From: Escherichia phage vB_EcoM_ESCO47
Length of the DNA: 64,000 bases
Direction: 5' to 3' (one strand)
Sequence record: OM386662.1
The notes below the pieces were generated by a model. It was not told where the DNA came from and ran no database searches. It saw nothing but the letters and a program-made list of their open reading frames with translations. The translations under genes and the position numbers were made by a program. Shown in pieces: positions 21,218 through 49,308 of this stretch; within the stretch, counting starts at the first letter, position 1; each line of letters opens with the position of its first letter.

Positions 21218-21252
21218 TTTACAAACTCTTGAGAGCAGAGTATAATGCTCTC
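21218..21252 (+). promoter_or_regulatory. Sigma70-type promoter with -10 embedded in a palindrome
   Basis: TTTACA-N17-TATAAT; inverted repeat GAGAGCA / TGCTCTC brackets the -10. Confidence 0.5.
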
Positions 21253-21287
21253 ATTGGATAATAAACCACCAATTGAAAGGTAATAAT

Positions 21288-31324: not shown

Positions 31325-31783
31325 ATGACAATCAATTCAGAAGTTTTCATTCGTCGCAACAAACTCCGTCGAATCTTCGAATCGGAGTTCCGTCAAATCA
31401 ACGCCGATATCAAGAACTCTGCAAAAGCTCTTGGTATCACAGGCTTTCATATCAAGTATTCTCAACATCTTTTAGATCGTGCTATTCAACGTGAAATCGA
31501 TGAGAACTACGTTTTTGAATTATTCCGTAAAGTAAAAAATCATGTTAAAGAAGTTGCAGAATTTTTATCAATGCCAGCACGTCCTGATGTTGACGAAGAT
31601 TTTGTCGAAGGAGTTGAGTATCGTCCAGGACGTTTAGAAATAACCGATGGAAATCTTTGGTTAGGACTTACTGTCTGTCGAGAAAATCCTGCATTTGAAA
31701 TGAAAACTCTCCAATGCAGAATGGCTATTATCAATAGCAAACGACTACCTGGAAAAGCTTCAAAAGCAGTGATTAAAATCTAG
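31325..31783 (+). CDS. regB: Endoribonuclease RegB
   Basis: MTINSEVFIRRNKLRRIFESEFRQIN...RMAIINSKRLPGKASKAVIKI matches recalled T4 RegB; own early promoter. Confidence 0.9.
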   Translation: MTINSEVFIRRNKLRRIFESEFRQINADIKNSAKALGITGFHIKYSQHLLDRAIQREIDENYVFELFRKVKNHVKEVAEFLSMPARPDVDEDFVEGVEYRPGRLEITDGNLWLGLTVCRENPAFEMKTLQCRMAIINSKRLPGKASKAVIKI

Positions 31784-39198: not shown

Positions 39199-39723
39199 AT
39201 GAACGCTAAAGATATTTTCAATCTGGTAAATTATAACGACGGTAAATTTAAATCTGAAGCACAAAGCAAGTTCTTTAATGATGTTGCTTATGGTAACGAG
39301 ATTACCGTAGACGGAGGTCAGATTTTCAAATCTCGCTGGAATTGGATTGTTATCATCGATTCAGTTGGAATTGTGGAAGTCTACAAAAACACCAACAAAA
39401 AACGTACTCTTCACTGGAGTCGTGCTACAAACGCAGAGTATCAGGCAAAACGTAAAGCACATAACATGCCTACTGAGTCTGATATCCAAAACATTAAATC
39501 AGATATCGAATACTACGACAGTCTGATTGCAGAACAACAAGCAGTTATTGACAAGTTCGACGAAATCAAAGCTTGTAAAGAAATTCCTGAATTTATGCGG
39601 GAATCAGTAAACGAACAGTACGCCCTCACTTCAGGTCGTATCGAGCAGTACAAATCACAACGAGCAGAACGCCAAGCACTTCTTCGGAAATTTGAAGAAC
39701 GTTTAAAGACGGTTCACGCATAA
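39199..39723 (+). CDS. Hypothetical protein
   Basis: 174-aa ORF with GGAGG RBS and early promoter. Confidence 0.5.
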   Translation: MNAKDIFNLVNYNDGKFKSEAQSKFFNDVAYGNEITVDGGQIFKSRWNWIVIIDSVGIVEVYKNTNKKRTLHWSRATNAEYQAKRKAHNMPTESDIQNIKSDIEYYDSLIAEQQAVIDKFDEIKACKEIPEFMRESVNEQYALTSGRIEQYKSQRAERQALLRKFEERLKTVHA

Positions 39724-39785
39724 ACGCTTTACCCAAGGATGGGTTATAATGGTTTTGAGTTCCAATTCAATCTGAGGAAATAGAT

Positions 39786-40763
39786 ATGAGTATTACATCA
39801 AACGCAGTAAAACATGAAATCAATGTATTATGCTCCAAACAACTTCCGATTTGGTTTGCTACCAGCAATCGTCGCGAATCTCTTAATTATGAAGCGATCG
39901 CTGTTCAAGTTCATCAACTGTTAATTACTAAATTTGATTTCCATGTACCGTCAGAAATCTATATTAAGTTGGCTATTACGTTGCTTAAAGAGTGCAAAAA
40001 TTATGGTCGCTCTATGGCAGACGGTATTTTCAACGCGTTGAACAAGCTTAATGTTCTGTCAATGGTTAACTCAAACAATATTTTGCGTAATCTCGGACGT
40101 ACTGATCTGTTCTGTCGTGAAAAAGGTAAAATGACACTCAAACAGATCGCCCATCATCTCAACCAGAACCAGTCTAGGTTTATCGCAGTATCGGCACGGT
40201 TACAGACTGGTCTGAATCGTCAGATGAATTTTAAAACGTTTTCAAAATATCCGGGTTATAACGAATTCTTTAAATGCGAAGTCCAGAACATTGGTGGTAA
40301 AACCGTGTTGGTTGTTCGTGTAACATTTGAAGGACGTCGTCAGCATTATTTTAATATTATCGGGTCCGGCCTTCAACATTTAGGTTTTATCGACGAAGTT
40401 AAGATTTTACGTCAACCGAACGGATTCTCGATTGGGTACGAATGCACGTTAAAAGATGAGTTTTTAGAAAAAGCTCCTCCTAAATTCGTTGAAGCACCGC
40501 CGATTATGGCAACACGTGATATTGCCGAAGAAGACAAGCTTCAAGAGCTTATCGACAATCTTGAATCAGGATTTGATCAACCTGTACAGAAATTTAAATC
40601 AAAACATGCTGAACAAATCAAATATTTTGAAGAACTGATTAATGAGCTTAATGTAACTATTCAACAGACTGACGATGAAATCTCTCGATTAGCCGGTATG
40701 AATGGTAAAAATAAAACCGAACGAGCTAATCTTATTCAGGTTGTAAAACTTCTTAAGGAATGA
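39786..40763 (+). CDS. Hypothetical protein with C-terminal coiled coil (paralog pair A)
   Basis: 325 aa; GAGGAA RBS; upstream CCAAGGAYGG...TATAAT element shared with next gene. Confidence 0.5.
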   Translation: MSITSNAVKHEINVLCSKQLPIWFATSNRRESLNYEAIAVQVHQLLITKFDFHVPSEIYIKLAITLLKECKNYGRSMADGIFNALNKLNVLSMVNSNNILRNLGRTDLFCREKGKMTLKQIAHHLNQNQSRFIAVSARLQTGLNRQMNFKTFSKYPGYNEFFKCEVQNIGGKTVLVVRVTFEGRRQHYFNIIGSGLQHLGFIDEVKILRQPNGFSIGYECTLKDEFLEKAPPKFVEAPPIMATRDIAEEDKLQELIDNLESGFDQPVQKFKSKHAEQIKYFEELINELNVTIQQTDDEISRLAGMNGKNKTERANLIQVVKLLKE

Positions 40764-40821
40764 TGTACAACCAAGGACGGATGGAGTATAATCATTCTAT
40801 CTTAACCAAGAGGAGAACATT

Positions 40822-41775
40822 ATGAAAACTCGTTCACATTACATTGATTACTTTGCAGGTCTTATCGCTAACGTTCATGCCCAACGTGCTTCTGGTGTAC
40901 TAGGATTTGATGTTCCACACCGAGATGTAGTAAGTGGTATTCTTCGAGATTTTGGTACATACATAGGCCAAGAAAATCATATCTGTAAAGATACTCAAAA
41001 TGCATATTCTCATTCATTAGGGACACTGCTTCAATGGTTCAAACGTTCTCGTTTATTATCTTCTACTGTAGCTCGCGATAACATTAAAAACTTTATGAAG
41101 CCGAGCTTTATTAAATCTGTGACATCTAAAACCGATTTGGTTGAATTCACTATTGTTAATGATGTTAAAAAGACTCGTTTGGCTGATTGGTTAACTACCA
41201 TTCCTGAAACTAAATTTGCTGATAAATTTGCTTGTGAATTCAATAACCAAGTGAATATGCTTTTTAAACATTCTCGTAAATTATTCACAGGCGGCGATGA
41301 TCGTACAAATACAGTTCATGCTAAAGATTGGGTTACTGCAGTGTTCAAACCAACCGGTAATGGTACCGCATCATTATCAATTGATATTCAGGTTCCTTAT
41401 TATTACTCACGTAATCTCGGCACCATGAAAGCTGAAGAAATTAAGAAGCACAATAAAACCATTCGTTCGCTGACTTATAAACTTCGCATGATGTTAAGAA
41501 TCATGGACGTGGTAGAAATGTATGATGAAACCGAAGATAACGGTTCAATGTTATTCAGTTCTCGTATTCAAATTAAGCTGAAGAACCCTAATACGTATAA
41601 ACCTAAGCCTATTAAAGAACCTAAAGTAGAAAAAGTTGATAATTTAAGAGAAGAACGCGAATATCTCAAATCTCGTCTGAAAGAAGTCGAAGCCCAGATT
41701 GCAGAACAAACTAAATCGTTAAAAGCTCTGAATGCGAAAGCGGATGGTTTACGAAATGCCATTGAGGTTTTATAA
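40822..41775 (+). CDS. Hypothetical protein with C-terminal coiled coil (paralog pair B)
   Basis: 317 aa; AGAGGAG RBS; similar size and architecture to 39786-40763. Confidence 0.5.
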   Translation: MKTRSHYIDYFAGLIANVHAQRASGVLGFDVPHRDVVSGILRDFGTYIGQENHICKDTQNAYSHSLGTLLQWFKRSRLLSSTVARDNIKNFMKPSFIKSVTSKTDLVEFTIVNDVKKTRLADWLTTIPETKFADKFACEFNNQVNMLFKHSRKLFTGGDDRTNTVHAKDWVTAVFKPTGNGTASLSIDIQVPYYYSRNLGTMKAEEIKKHNKTIRSLTYKLRMMLRIMDVVEMYDETEDNGSMLFSSRIQIKLKNPNTYKPKPIKEPKVEKVDNLREEREYLKSRLKEVEAQIAEQTKSLKALNAKADGLRNAIEVL

Positions 41776-42080
41776 TGAAACTACGTCTTTTAGAGGATAT
41801 TGATATGAACACTAATCACCGCTTGGTTAAGTTTATTGACGATAGTTCAAAGATTGAATTTGTTCAGCGAGATAAAATCCACGGTGAAGAAGAGTTCGTT
41901 CCTCCGGCATGGAACGAAATAATGAAAATGGTTGAACGACGTGAAAATGCTGCCAAATCGGCAGCAAAACATCCATGCCCGGAATGTGGAACTATCCAAG
42001 TCCAACTGGTTAACTGGACCACTGATAACTTGAAATTGAAATGTCGTAAATGCTTCCACAAATTTGAGAGAACATTATAA
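41775..42080 (+). CDS. Zinc-ribbon hypothetical protein
   Basis: CPECG...CRKC four-Cys motif; ATGA coupling. Confidence 0.45.
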   Translation: MKLRLLEDIDMNTNHRLVKFIDDSSKIEFVQRDKIHGEEEFVPPAWNEIMKMVERRENAAKSAAKHPCPECGTIQVQLVNWTTDNLKLKCRKCFHKFERTL

Positions 42081-42493
42081 TGAGATATAGCCTTCGTTGT
42101 TTTATTGCAGCTTTAGTTTTTGTCATCATTCCATTCATTTGGAGCAGCCAGAATACTTACATGGAAACTAAAGTAATTCCTGTGGAGGTAGTGGAATTAA
42201 TCTCAGGCCAATCTACAGGAAAATATTCTAAATTGGAATTTATTGCAGTTTATAAAGATGAACAAGGTCGAGTTTTTGACAGGCATGTATCTCCATCATT
42301 TTATACGCTTCTGAATAAAGGTGATACGATAGCTATAGAAATTCGTGAGATGGATATCAAACAAACTACTAAAGATAACCTGATTTGGTTCTTTGGTACA
42401 GTGTTGATGTTCTCTATCGGTATCACAGGTTTTATTACATGTATTGTATTTGGTGTTGCATATTTAATCGATGAAAGGAAAAATAATGTTTAA
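42080..42493 (+). CDS. Membrane protein
   Basis: N- and C-terminal TM segments. Confidence 0.45.
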   Translation: MRYSLRCFIAALVFVIIPFIWSSQNTYMETKVIPVEVVELISGQSTGKYSKLEFIAVYKDEQGRVFDRHVSPSFYTLLNKGDTIAIEIREMDIKQTTKDNLIWFFGTVLMFSIGITGFITCIVFGVAYLIDERKNNV

Positions 42494-43842: not shown

Positions 43843-44316
43843 ATGTTATTATCAGGCGCAAAATATAAAGAAGAAAAACAAAAATTTTATGATGCACAGA
43901 ATGGTAAGTGTCCTATTTGCCACCGTGAATTAGACCCTGATGTTCAAGGTAACCATCTTGACCACGACCACGAATTAAACGGGCCAAAAGCCGGTAGAGT
44001 TCGTGGATTACTCTGTAATCTGTGCAACGCAGCAGAAGGTCAAATGAAGCATAAGTTCAACCGTTCCGGTCTTAAAGGCTGTGATGTCGACTACCTAGAA
44101 TGGCTTGAAGCTCTTCTTGCTTATTTGAAACAAGATTATTCTGATAATAATATCCATCCTAATTTTGTTCCAGACAAAACTAAAGAGTTCTCAAGACTAT
44201 GTAAAGAGGAAATGATGGCTGAGATGCTTCAAAGAGGATTTGAATATAATGAATCTGATACTAAAACACAATTAATAGCTTCATTCAAAAAGCAGCTTAG
44301 AAAGAGTTTAAAATGA
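43843..44316 (+). CDS. 49: Endonuclease VII (Holliday junction resolvase) gp49
   Basis: 157 aa MLLSGAKYKEEKQKFYDAQNGKCPICHREL...HLDHDHELNGPKAGRVRGLLCNLCN matches recalled T4 gp49; late promoter upstream. Confidence 0.9.
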   Translation: MLLSGAKYKEEKQKFYDAQNGKCPICHRELDPDVQGNHLDHDHELNGPKAGRVRGLLCNLCNAAEGQMKHKFNRSGLKGCDVDYLEWLEALLAYLKQDYSDNNIHPNFVPDKTKEFSRLCKEEMMAEMLQRGFEYNESDTKTQLIASFKKQLRKSLK

Positions 44317-49236: not shown

Positions 49237-49271
49237 TTTACAAACTCTTGGGAGTAGAGTATAATACTCCC
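49237..49271 (+). promoter_or_regulatory. Sigma70-type promoter with -10 embedded in a palindrome (second copy)
   Basis: TTTACA-N17-TATAAT; inverted repeat GGGAGTA / TACTCCC with compensatory changes relative to copy at 21218. Confidence 0.5.
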
Positions 49272-49308
49272 AATGGATAATAAAATTTTAATTACCGAGG
49301 AAATTGAT

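What the first reader, a model, noticed from the sequence alone, without database searches (positions are those of the whole stretch)
39724..41775. Paralogous gene pair with duplicated upstream control element
ORFs 39786-40763 (325 aa) and 40822-41775 (317 aa) share size and a C-terminal coiled coil, and each is preceded by a similar element (ACCCAAGGATGGGTTATAAT and AACCAAGGACGGATGGAGTATAAT) that differs from the GTTTAC early-promoter class used elsewhere. This looks like a duplicated module with its own regulation.
Basis: seen in the sequence. Interest (0 to 1): 0.4.

Follow-up and report, generated by a model that had tools for sequence, protein, structure and literature searches.

The report
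T4-type NrdC cassettes with hairpin promoters
The two genes are known but uncharacterised T4-type phage genes (NrdC.6-like and NrdC.3), very distant relatives in a variable tandem array, and each has its own promoter whose spacer holds a small conserved hairpin; most of this is ordinary for T4-like phages, but I found no earlier description of the hairpin.

Summary
Both ORFs, their sizes, their C-terminal heptad helices and the two CCAAGGA...TATAAT elements are at the stated coordinates (2 matches against 0.05 expected by chance).

The window comes from Escherichia phage vB_EcoM_ESCO47, a T4-like phage. ORF B is the T4 NrdC.3 ortholog (57% identity). ORF A is a NrdC.6 homolog (27%).

A and B show no pairwise or family-to-family sequence similarity. 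They share the same order of secondary-structure elements, give reciprocal Foldseek hits, and link through a merged NrdC.3/4/5 profile (HHalign 48%, or 83-90% with secondary structure added). They are best read as ancient paralogs, not a recent duplicate pair. They belong to a 2-4 cassette array whose member NrdC.5 counteracts the Dsr1 defence.

The upstream elements are not a new promoter class:
- A has a MotA-box (middle-type) promoter.
- B has a degenerate early -35/-10 promoter, which reads GTTTAC in relatives.

What the two promoters share is a 4-8 bp hairpin with an invariant AGGA loop inside the promoter spacer. It is conserved across four genera with compensatory stem changes.

Recombination between these repeats precisely accounts for the missing middle cassette in this phage. 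The elements therefore behave like PeSL-type regulatory cassettes. The role of the hairpin is unknown.

The parts
39725..39731 (+). MotA-box-like element CGCTTTA of the A promoter. It lies 13 nt upstream of the -10 hexamer, 2 nt after the nrdC.8-like stop codon.
   Evidence: Read directly from the sequence. T4 nrdC.7, VR25, dhaeg and IME281 have nGCTTTA at the same place, 12 nt from TATAAT. No -35-like hexamer lies at 16-18 bp (one search lists none for this site).
39731..39744 (+). Spacer hairpin of the A promoter: ACCCA / loop AGGA / TGGGT, a perfect 5-bp stem.
   Evidence: the hairpin is part of the minimum-free-energy fold. Covariation across 13 distinct elements is.
39745..39750 (+). -10 hexamer TATAAT of the A promoter. 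The predicted start site is about 39757.
   Evidence: Start site is inferred, not measured.
39786..40763 (+). ORF A, 325 aa, a NrdC.6-family protein (GenBank UPW39306.1, mislabelled 'thioredoxin'). Its Shine-Dalgarno GAGGA is at 39774-39778.
   Evidence: 27% identity to T4 NrdC.6, E=7e-17. (phrog_2257, 4e-94). (100% identity to the vB_EcoM_ESCO47 protein; precomputed Pfam PF26899). (structure model).
40764..40769 (+). Degenerate -35 hexamer TGTACA of the B promoter, with a 17-bp spacer. It lies directly after the stop codon of A (40761-40763).
   Evidence: 10 of 12 match to the sigma-70 consensus. Relatives have (G)TTTACA at the mid|B junction.
40768..40783 (+). Spacer hairpin of the B promoter: CAACC / loop AAGGAC / GGATG. 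It has one internal A.A mismatch in this phage. vB_Eco_F27 has the perfect CAACCA/TGGTTG.
   Evidence: This sequence supplies the only unpaired cell at pair 7-18 of the covariation table.
40783..40792 (+). GGAG (40783-40786) followed by the -10 hexamer TATAAT (40787-40792) of the B promoter. The predicted start site is about 40799.
   Evidence: GGAG-TATAAT is conserved in the Mosigvirus, Gaprivervirus and Dhakavirus elements and in the T4 nrdC.3 element.
40822..41775 (+). ORF B, 317 aa, NrdC.3 ortholog (GenBank UPW39307.1, mislabelled 'thioredoxin'). Its Shine-Dalgarno GAGGAG is at 40810-40815. Its stop codon overlaps the start of the nrdC.2-like ORF at 41775.
   Evidence: 57% identity to T4 NrdC.3, E=1.7e-123. 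(phrog_1435, 2e-104). (precomputed Pfam PF26897). (structure model).

Best explanation
The region holds two surviving cassettes of a variable tandem gene array. The array lies in a hyperplastic early region of a T4-type (Mosigvirus-like) phage, between nrdC.8 and nrdC.2.

ORF A is the NrdC.6-type member and ORF B is NrdC.3. T4 carries four members (NrdC.6, .5, .4, .3), most Mosigviruses carry three, and this phage and vB_Eco_F27 carry two.

The members are ancient paralogs with one architecture: an N-terminal helical bundle, two more helices, a beta-hairpin/helix/beta-hairpin unit, a disordered linker, and a C-terminal heptad helix.

Each cassette is transcribed by host RNA polymerase from its own promoter:
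- A from a MotA-box plus -10 promoter (middle type).
- B from a -35/17 bp/-10 promoter (early type), with a weakened -35 here.

The shared 'CCAAGGA' is the core of a 4-8 bp hairpin with an invariant AGGA loop. The hairpin fills the promoter spacer and is maintained by compensatory changes.

The promoter repeats also act as portable homology. Recombination inside the 27-bp repeat removes or inserts whole cassettes, as described for PeSL regulatory cassettes.

Shown here: gene identities, array variation, the deletion junction, hairpin covariation, and profile and fold similarity.

Inferred: promoter activity and promoter class; that the proteins are accessory host-range or anti-defence factors (by analogy with NrdC.5 against Dsr1); and any role of the hairpin. 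My preferred guess for the hairpin is that it acts on read-through RNA by presenting an unpaired GGA, the feature RegB requires.
For: Identity:
- B is 57% identical to T4 NrdC.3 (E=1.7e-123) and A is 27% identical to NrdC.6 (E=7e-17).
- The window protein is 100% identical to a vB_EcoM_ESCO47 protein.

Array and its variation:
- The gene maps of 14 loci are; the F27 locus, added afterwards, shows the same two-gene layout as the window.

Paralogy:
- NrdC.4 against NrdC.3: 96-98% HHalign probability. NrdC.5 against NrdC.4: 52-85%.
- The A family against the merged NrdC.3/4/5 profile: 47.7%, E=1.9e-4, colinear over 120 columns. With secondary structure added: 82.7% local and 90.2% global, E=1.2e-5, covering A 14-323 against B 1-317.
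- Secondary-structure elements fall at nearly the same residues in both models.
- Foldseek: model A hits a NrdC.3 ortholog (A0A449C4K0, E=1.4e-4, probability 1.0). Model B hits a NrdC.6-like protein (A0A2K9VMF6, E=5e-3, probability 0.94). The two models also share hits E5EYP0, A0A1Z1LY96 and A0A1J0MH73.

Hairpin:
- Seven different stems occur around a constant AGGA loop.
- On 13 distinct elements, 84.6% of cells are paired against 64% in shuffles (0 of 500 shuffles reach the observed value).
- The covariation score is 0.468 against 0.099 in shuffles, and at most 0.135 when the partners are slid.
- One pair shows UA, AU, CG and GC.
- As a control, 120 matches to a loose version of the pattern in viral contigs had 0-1 bp of pairing in 110 cases. 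The six matches with stems of 4 bp or more all came from T4-like contigs.

Cassette loss:
- The F27 and window junction equals the left flank of the A|middle repeat plus the right flank of the middle|B repeat of the three-cassette phages.

Portability:
- The same element precedes an unrelated small ORF in another early region of Mosigvirus-like phages.

Function lead:
- T4 nrdC.5 restores infection on Dsr1-carrying hosts (PMC9391042).

PeSL precedent:
- PMC2839356 and PMC4122927.
Against: - A and B have no direct sequence similarity, and the A family scores below 3% against each single family.
- The structure models are of low confidence (mean pLDDT 63 and 55), and the cross-family Foldseek TM-scores are low (0.26-0.30).
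- The secondary structure fed to HHalign came from those same models.
- No transcription start data were available, so promoter use and class are read from consensus only. The -35 of B matches only 4 of 6 positions.
- The B hairpin carries a mismatch in this very phage, so any hairpin function may be weakened here.
- Each hairpin alone is weak (-3 to -8 kcal/mol) and not unusual by energy. About 10% of random 29-mers in the window hold a 5-bp stem.
- The anti-defence role is extrapolated from one paralog that is absent from this phage.
Confidence: 0.7

Rival explanations
1. The two genes are unrelated in origin. Similar size and a C-terminal coiled coil are coincidence or convergence. The upstream similarity exists only because a portable promoter cassette (PeSL-like) has spread to many early genes, not because gene and promoter were duplicated together.
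For: There is no pairwise or family-to-family similarity. The same promoter and hairpin element precedes an unrelated small ORF elsewhere in Mosigvirus-like genomes. The structure models are of low confidence.
Against: Foldseek hits are reciprocal and full length. The HHalign match to the merged profile is colinear, at 48-90%. The merged NrdC.3/4/5 HMM ranks A-like and NrdC.6 proteins first among all non-members of 379 local ORFs, though at E=0.13-0.17. The order of secondary-structure elements is identical. NrdC.3.4 and .5 are clearly homologous, and A occupies the first slot of the same array.
Confidence: 0.2
2. The hairpin is an RNA signal that acts only on read-through transcripts, because it lies upstream of each cassette's own start site. 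It presents an unpaired GGA in the loop with the fourth base held in the closing pair. In the early-type elements a second GGAG with an A/U-rich 3' side follows. The phage RegB endoribonuclease would cut there. Together with PNK and RNase G/E, this would uncouple each cassette from upstream transcription.
For: The AGGA loop is invariant while the stems covary. regB is present in the window at 31325-31783 (PF10715, 1e-68). The review PMC3014915 states four relevant points: RegB cuts GGAG/U in intergenic regions of early genes; the GGA triplet is totally conserved; RegB alone cleaves a small RNA when GGA is unpaired and the fourth nucleotide is constrained; and strong sites read GGAGRAYARAA. The sequence GGAGUAUAAUAAA matches 5 of the 7 following positions.
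Against: In 5 of 13 elements the fourth base is C (GGAC), which is not a described RegB target. The same review says RNA secondary structure generally protects against RegB. The hairpin is always inside a promoter, which an RNA-only function would not require. There are no cleavage data.
Confidence: 0.25
3. The hairpin matters at the DNA level. One version is a single-strand or cruciform structure that promotes or targets recombination at cassette borders, as the PeSL authors speculated for their stem-loops. The other is that it is merely kept perfect by quasi-palindrome templated mutation, without selection for any function.
For: The cassette deletion junction lies inside the repeat. The PeSL papers map one crossover to a stem-loop loop and propose the stem-loop as a target for a recombination protein (PMC2839356). 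The element is portable. Templated correction of quasi-palindromes is a known T4 mutational mechanism (my own knowledge; not checked here).
Against: Homologous recombination over a 27-bp identical repeat explains the junction without any hairpin. Stems of 4-6 bp do not extrude as cruciforms in duplex DNA. The invariant non-palindromic AGGA loop suggests sequence-specific recognition, not structure alone.
Confidence: 0.15
4. The inverted repeat is an operator for a dimeric DNA-binding regulator that controls these promoters together.
For: The core CCA-N4-TGG is nearly invariant and sits between -35 and -10, a classical operator position.
Against: The outer stem positions vary but stay complementary (UA, AU, CG and GC at one pair). 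Base-specific half-site recognition does not predict that. The position of the hairpin within the spacer shifts by 4 bp between elements: it abuts -35 in Mosigvirus and abuts -10 in T4 nrdC.4. No candidate regulator is known.
Confidence: 0.07

Closest known systems
Bacteriophage T4 ORFs nrdC.3 and nrdC.6 ('conserved hypothetical proteins' of the nrdC-tk early region)
   Same: B is a full-length ortholog of NrdC.3 (57% identity) and lies directly upstream of nrdC.2. A is a full-length homolog of NrdC.6 (27-31%) and lies downstream of nrdC.8.
   Different: A is a divergent Mosigvirus-type allele that is 50 aa longer than T4 NrdC.6. In T4, nrdC.7 sits between the promoter and nrdC.6. Here the nrdC.7-like membrane gene lies downstream of nrdC.2. 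NrdC.5 and NrdC.4 are absent.
PeSL / PmSL regulatory cassettes of T4-type phages (Arbiol et al. 2010, PMC2839356; Comeau et al. 2014, PMC4122927)
   Same: They are short conserved promoter-containing repeats in hyperplastic regions. They flank non-essential variable ORFs. Indels have crossovers inside the repeat. Early (sigma-70-like) and middle (Mot-box) versions exist, and a stem-loop is part of the unit.
   Different: In PeSLs the stem-loop lies just upstream of the promoter and works as a terminator. Here the stem-loop lies inside the spacer between the -35 or MotA box and the -10, has no U tract, and carries an invariant AGGA loop. The stem consensus reported for the T4/PST pair (AGNA...TCNT) is different.
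T4 middle (MotA/AsiA-dependent) and early promoters
   Same: A: an nGCTTTA box 12-13 bp upstream of TATAAT. B: TTTACA-like -35, 17-bp spacer, TATAAT. Both agree with the consensus summarised in PMC2988021 and PMC4122927.
   Different: The first base of the MotA box is C rather than T. The -35 of B is TGTACA in this phage. A conserved, covarying spacer hairpin is not mentioned in the two reviews and two PeSL papers I consulted.
T4 NrdC.5, inhibitor of the Dsr1 (defence-associated sirtuin) system (Srikant et al. 2022, PMC9391042)
   Same: It belongs to the same tandem array. It is homologous to NrdC.4 and NrdC.3 at profile level. It is an early, non-essential, host-range-type gene.
   Different: Neither A nor B is the NrdC.5 ortholog. 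The NrdC.5-like middle cassette of Mosigviruses is missing from this phage. No activity has been tested for NrdC.3 or NrdC.6.

Membership tests
T4 NrdC.3 family (PHROG 1435 / Pfam PF26897) | Full-length sequence homology to T4 NrdC.3 | tested here: met
   BLASTP 57% identity over 318 aa, E=1.7e-123. phrog_1435 at E=2e-104. All database relatives carry PF26897.
T4 NrdC.3 family (PHROG 1435 / Pfam PF26897) | Conserved position immediately upstream of nrdC.2 | tested here: met
   The stop codon of B overlaps the start of the nrdC.2-like ORF at 41775.
T4 NrdC.6 family (PHROG 2257 / Pfam PF26899) | Full-length sequence homology to T4 NrdC.6 | tested here: met
   BLASTP 27% identity over 300 aa, E=7e-17. 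tblastn 30-32% over 100% of the query in Tequatrovirus genomes. phrog_2257 at E=4e-94. PF26899.
NrdC.3/4/5/6 superfamily (proposed here) | A and B share common ancestry, detectable by profile or fold | tested here: inconclusive
   Direct family-to-family HHalign gives 0.3%. Against the merged NrdC.3/4/5 profile it gives 47.7%, or 83-90% with secondary structure added. Reciprocal Foldseek hits have E=1.4e-4 and 5e-3 but TM only 0.26-0.30, and the models have pLDDT 55-63.
PeSL (promoter-early stem-loop) cassette | Sigma-70-like early promoter (-35, about 17 bp, -10) | tested here: met
   Met for B: TGTACA-17-TATAAT, 10 of 12, and TTTACA in relatives. Not met for A, which has no -35 and fits the Mot-box (PmSL) version instead.
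PeSL (promoter-early stem-loop) cassette | Stem-loop located just upstream of the promoter and acting as a transcription terminator | tested here: not met
   The stem-loop lies between the -35 or MotA box and the -10, and is followed by TATAAT, not a U tract. The terminator scan found none at these sites.
PeSL (promoter-early stem-loop) cassette | Lies in a hyperplastic region, flanks variable non-essential ORFs, and indel crossovers fall inside the repeat | tested here: met
   The array has 2, 3 or 4 cassettes, and some members are split or lost. The two-cassette junction maps inside the 27-bp repeat.
PeSL (promoter-early stem-loop) cassette | Formation of excised mini-circles during infection | not testable with these tools
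   This needs inverse PCR on infected cells (method in PMC2839356).
T4 middle promoter (MotA/AsiA sigma appropriation) | MotA box (a/t)(a/t)TGCTT(t/c)A centred near -30, 11-13 bp from a TAnnnT -10 | tested here: met
   A has aaCGCTTTA, then 13 nt, then TATAAT. One mismatch (C for T) lies at the first base of the core.
T4 middle promoter (MotA/AsiA sigma appropriation) | Transcription depends on MotA and AsiA | not testable with these tools
   This needs primer extension or RNA-seq in motA- or asiA- infections.
RegB endoribonuclease target | GGAG/U with an unpaired GGA and a constrained fourth nucleotide, or GGAGRAYARAA | tested here: inconclusive
   The loop is AGGA followed by a paired U in 8 of 13 elements and by C in 5 of 13. 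The adjacent GGAGUAUAAU matches 5 of 7 consensus positions. regB is present. No cleavage data exist.
Thioredoxin/glutaredoxin (the GenBank label of both proteins) | Thioredoxin-fold domain with a CxxC motif | tested here: not met
   There is no thioredoxin-family hit in Pfam at E up to 1 or in NCBIfam. The predicted architecture is helical plus beta-alpha-beta. The label is propagated from the locus names 'nrdC.n'.

The most novel reading that the evidence does not exclude
The AGGA-loop hairpin embedded between the -35 or MotA box and the -10 is a dedicated cis-element that marks the borders of an anti-defence gene-cassette array in T-even-type phages. It would be read either as RNA or as single-stranded DNA. 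As RNA, it would be a RegB- or ribosome-recognised signal that insulates each cassette from read-through transcription. As single-stranded DNA, it would be a recombination signal, functionally analogous to an integron attC site. On either reading, the unit of promoter, hairpin and gene would be a mobile, self-regulated module for rapid turnover of host-range genes.
Probability: 0.2. Interest if true: 0.65.

Novelty: new variant of a known kind. Interest (0 to 1): 0.4.

Why it matters
The nrdC-tk region of T-even phages is a store of uncharacterised early genes. One of them (NrdC.5) is already known to defeat a bacterial defence.

If NrdC.3, .4, .5 and .6 are one diversifying paralog family, with cassettes that come and go by recombination at their promoters, there is a rational set of candidates to test against defence systems. 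This would also explain how closely related therapeutic coliphages differ in host range.

The covarying hairpin inside otherwise textbook T4 promoters is a small, cheaply testable feature. It could reveal an extra layer of control or a recombination signal in one of the best-studied transcription systems.

If the hairpin turns out to be inert, the finding reduces to ordinary PeSL-like promoter repeats in front of known hypothetical genes.

Tried and rejected
- Pfam, NCBIfam and PDB sequence searches gave nothing for A or B beyond weak coiled-coil noise.
- An exhaustive phmmer of A against 1.84 billion representatives found only 6 relatives, all in its own family, and no bridge to B.
- Two loose DNA-pattern scans of viral contigs returned mostly chance matches. 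They were useful only as a null control. One apparent extra hairpin variant (L188, CCCC/GGGG) lay inside an unrelated ORF and was dropped.
- Protein-based locus searches in IMG/VR gave only 5-7 loci, so GenBank phage records were used instead.
- The idea that the imperfect B hairpin of this window is a recombinant of Mosigvirus and Dhakavirus arms was dropped. Two point substitutions relative to vB_Eco_F27 explain it equally well.
- A 14-codon upstream ORF starting at the ATG inside AAGGATGG was rejected. It has no spacing from the Shine-Dalgarno-like motif, and the ATG reads ACG in Mosigvirus relatives.
- Neither T4 GenBank record carries promoter annotation in this region.
- A reading as a terminator was rejected: there is no U tract, the stems are weak, and the scan found none.
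Full report
WHAT IS THERE

The window is a T4-like coliphage. Megablast finds 657 Tevenvirinae records, the best being Mosigvirus at 86-90% identity. ORF A is 100% identical to a protein of Escherichia phage vB_EcoM_ESCO47.

The + strand runs in the early-gene direction. The gene order is nrdC.11, nrdC.10, nrdC.9, nrdC.8, A, B, nrdC.2, an nrdC.7-like membrane gene, nrdC, then gene 49 and nrdD.

The pattern CCAAGGA-N(1-12)-TATAAT occurs twice in 64 kb, only at these two sites, against 0.05 expected.

Both proteins end in a long predicted helix with heptad periodicity.

GENE IDENTITIES

B is the ortholog of T4 NrdC.3 (57% identity, E=1.7e-123). A is a homolog of T4 NrdC.6 (27%, E=7e-17). They fall in different PHROGs of unknown function and carry different precomputed Pfam accessions, PF26899 and PF26897.

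Both are labelled 'thioredoxin' in GenBank. That label is copied from the locus names nrdC.n. No thioredoxin domain is detectable.

ARE A AND B PARALOGS?

Directly, no. BLASTP gives E=1.5. HHalign of the two family alignments gives 0.4%, with only a weak coiled-coil match. tblastn of A finds one place per genome. An exhaustive phmmer finds only A's own family.

The wider array does link them. From 14 loci I built alignments of the four T4 families:
- NrdC.4 against NrdC.3 gives 96-98% probability.
- NrdC.5 against NrdC.4 gives 52-85%.
- NrdC.5 against NrdC.3 gives 45% in global mode.
- The A/NrdC.6 family is below 3% against each single family.
- Against the merged NrdC.3/4/5 profile it gives 47.7% (E=1.9e-4) over 120 colinear columns (A 73-201 with B 62-223).
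- With the DSSP strings of the two models added as secondary structure, this rises to 82.7% local and 90.2% global (E=1.2e-5) over nearly the full lengths.

The two AlphaFold2 models are of low overall confidence (pLDDT 63 and 55). Their N-terminal domains are fairly confident (75-90). The order and positions of the elements are almost the same:
- Helices at about 3-23, 35-50, 56-71, 77-105, 118-127 and 129-141 in A, against 4-24, 33-47, 56-74, 77-91, 120-126 and 129-150 in B.
- Then a beta-hairpin, a helix and a beta-hairpin.
- Then a disordered linker and the C-terminal helix.

Foldseek against BFVD is reciprocal:
- Model A hits the NrdC.3 ortholog of phage fPS-65 (E=1.4e-4, probability 1.0).
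- Model B hits the NrdC.6-like protein of Sf25 (E=5e-3, probability 0.94).
- Both models hit the same further T4-like phage proteins of about 300-350 aa.

I conclude that A and B are probably ancient paralogs within one superfamily. They are not a recent duplicate pair. This step is supported but not proven.

THE ARRAY VARIES

- T4-like Tequatroviruses carry nrdC.7-nrdC.6 | nrdC.5 | nrdC.4 | nrdC.3.
- Mosigviruses such as moha and phiC120 carry A | a NrdC.5-like gene | B.
- Gaprivervirus and Dhakavirus carry nrdC.6 | a NrdC.5-like gene | nrdC.4 and lack nrdC.3.
- This window and vB_Eco_F27 carry only A | B.
- Several phages have split or missing members: T2, L131, SP18 and Pinarejo.
- Some Tequatroviruses carry a NrdC.3 allele closer to the window's B (76-78%) than the T4 allele is (57%).

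The one member with a known phenotype is T4 nrdC.5. It restores infection on hosts carrying the Dsr1 defence (PMC9391042).

THE UPSTREAM ELEMENTS

They are promoters of ordinary T4 types.

A has aaCGCTTTA, then 13 nt, then TATAAT, with no -35. That is the MotA-box geometry of middle promoters. T4 has CCGCTTTA-12-TATAAT at the equivalent site upstream of nrdC.7.

B has TGTACA-17-TATAAT. At the middle|B junction of three-cassette relatives the same element reads GTTTAC-AACCAAGGATGGTTGGAG-TATAAT, a standard early promoter.

THE SPACER HAIRPIN

What the elements share is the spacer. It forms a hairpin with an invariant AGGA (or AAGGAY) loop. The stems differ between elements but stay complementary:
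- ACCC(A)/(T)GGGT
- TTATACCA/TGGTATAA
- CAACC(A)/(T)GGTTG
- CATCC(A)/(T)GGATG
- AGCCA/TGGCT
- CCACA/TGTGG
- TCCA/TGGA

On 13 distinct homologous elements:
- 84.6% of cells are paired, against 64% after shuffling (0 of 500 shuffles reach the observed value).
- The covariation score is 0.468, against 0.099 in shuffles and at most 0.135 when partners are slid by 1-3 columns.
- One pair shows UA, AU, CG and GC.

As a control, I took 120 matches to a loose version of the motif across IMG/VR. Of these, 110 had 0-1 bp of pairing. The six matches with stems of 4 bp or more all came from T4-like contigs.

In this window the A hairpin is perfect (5 bp). The B hairpin has one A.A mismatch.

Single hairpins are weak and not unusual by energy. 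The evidence is the covariation. The sequences are related by descent, so the shuffle control overstates significance. The slid-partner control and the four pair types at one position argue that the signal is real.

CASSETTE LOSS AT THE REPEAT

In three-cassette Mosigviruses the repeat TACAACCAAGGATGGTTGGAGTATAAT occurs after A and again before B. In F27 (and, with two substitutions, in this window) the sequence to the left of a single copy equals the A|middle junction. The sequence to the right equals the middle|B junction. This is a precise deletion or insertion of the middle cassette by recombination within the repeat.

The same element also precedes an unrelated small ORF in another early region of Mosigvirus-like phages.

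This is the behaviour described for PeSL/PmSL cassettes (PMC2839356, PMC4122927). One defining difference remains: PeSL stem-loops sit upstream of the promoter and terminate transcription, whereas this one sits inside the spacer and has no U tract.

HOW IT MOST LIKELY WORKS

Shown: two cassettes, each with a consensus promoter directly upstream, a leader of about 35 nt and a strong Shine-Dalgarno sequence.

Inferred: A is transcribed in the middle mode and B in the early mode, and both are also covered by read-through from upstream early promoters.

The hairpin lies upstream of each cassette's own start site. Any RNA role could therefore affect only read-through transcripts. The loop offers an unpaired GGA whose fourth base is in the closing pair. 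In early-type elements it is followed by GGAG-UAUAAU. regB is present in the window. The review PMC3014915 states that RegB cuts GGAG/U in early intergenic regions and needs an unpaired GGA with a constrained fourth base. I rank this as the leading hypothesis for the hairpin, at about 0.25.

Three observations count against it:
- In 5 of 13 elements the fourth base is C.
- The same review says secondary structure usually protects against RegB.
- An RNA role does not explain why the hairpin is always inside a promoter.

DNA-level roles (a recombination signal, or quasi-palindrome maintenance) and an operator are the alternatives. The operator fits the covariation poorly.

Protein function is unknown. 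The only lead is the anti-Dsr1 activity of the paralog NrdC.5, which this phage lacks.

VERDICT

The genes are known T4 'conserved hypothetical' ORFs, and the promoter repeats fit a known kind (PeSL-like cassettes, T4 early and middle promoters).

Two things appear not to have been described:
- the superfamily link between NrdC.6 and NrdC.3/4/5;
- the covarying AGGA-loop hairpin inside the promoter spacer.

The check for prior description was limited: neither PeSL paper uses the word 'spacer', and neither the transcription review nor the post-transcriptional review mentions such a hairpin.

Interest is moderate.

Noticed in passing
window 39786-41775; also L002 (phage moha) and other GenBank records: Both proteins, and most nrdC.n neighbours in many GenBank phage records, are annotated 'thioredoxin' (UPW39306.1, UPW39307.1). 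No thioredoxin domain is detectable. The label appears to be propagated from the locus names nrdC.1 to nrdC.11.
   Followed up: yes
window 44226-44256: Inside the 3' end of gene 49, about 60 nt upstream of the nrdD start, lies a perfect MotA box TGCTTCA. It overlaps a 6-bp hairpin TTCAAA-GAGGA-TTTGAA that abuts TATAAT. It is conserved in T4 and in Mosigvirus loci. This is a second case of a GGA-loop hairpin filling the spacer of a middle-type promoter.
   Followed up: partly
window 21218-21260 and 49237-49279: Two early promoters read TTTACAA-ACTCT-T(GAGAGC/GGGAGT)-AGAGTATAAT-(GCTCTC/ACTCCC). They have a 5-bp stem ACTCT/AGAGT abutting the -10. They also have a second inverted repeat that brackets the -10 and differs between the two copies in a compensatory way (GAGAGC/GCTCTC against GGGAGT/ACTCCC). 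Promoter-embedded hairpins may be more general in this phage.
   Followed up: no
window 42080-42493: The nrdC.7-like predicted membrane protein (40% identical to T4 NrdC.7) lies downstream of nrdC.2 in this phage and in Mosigviruses. In T4 it lies between nrdC.8 and nrdC.6. The gene has moved within the array.
   Followed up: partly
window 39199-39723 (nrdC.8-like, 174 aa): This gene also ends in a long charged helical segment. It was the best non-family hit of the NrdC.6 HMM (E=0.15). A 175-aa Klebsiella phage KPV15 protein (A0A1J0MH73) was hit by both structure models. NrdC.8 may be a short relative of the same superfamily.
   Followed up: no
window 40758-40797: A longer inverted repeat GAATGAT...ATCATTC brackets the whole B promoter, from the stop codon of A to just past the -10. 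The RNA fold is -11 kcal/mol with z=-2.6. vB_Eco_F27 has one mismatch in it. Its significance is unknown.
   Followed up: no
window 31325-31783: The window contains the regB endoribonuclease gene (PF10715, E=1e-68). It is relevant to any RNA-processing reading of the GGA and GGAG motifs.
   Followed up: yes
L130, L131, L132, L138 (Tequatrovirus loci) compared with window 40822-41775: Some Tequatroviruses carry a NrdC.3 allele 76-78% identical to the window's B, whereas the T4 allele is only 57% identical to B. This points to allele exchange across genera within the array.
   Followed up: no
L135 (T2), L131, L137 (SP18), L265 (Pinarejo): Array members are often split or lost. nrdC.4 and nrdC.6 are in two pieces in T2. 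nrdC.4 is split in L131. The NrdC.5-like gene is split in SP18. nrdC.6 is reduced to its last 45 codons in Pinarejo. This fits dispensable, fast-turnover cassettes.
   Followed up: partly
L226 5100-5200 (IMG/VR contig; 97% identical to phages AV110, vB_EQ1 and phi25-307): The same promoter and hairpin element (GTTTAC-ATCC-AAGGAC-GGAT-TAGAG-TATAAT) sits in a different early region, upstream of an unrelated small ORF. The element is therefore not confined to the NrdC array.
   Followed up: partly
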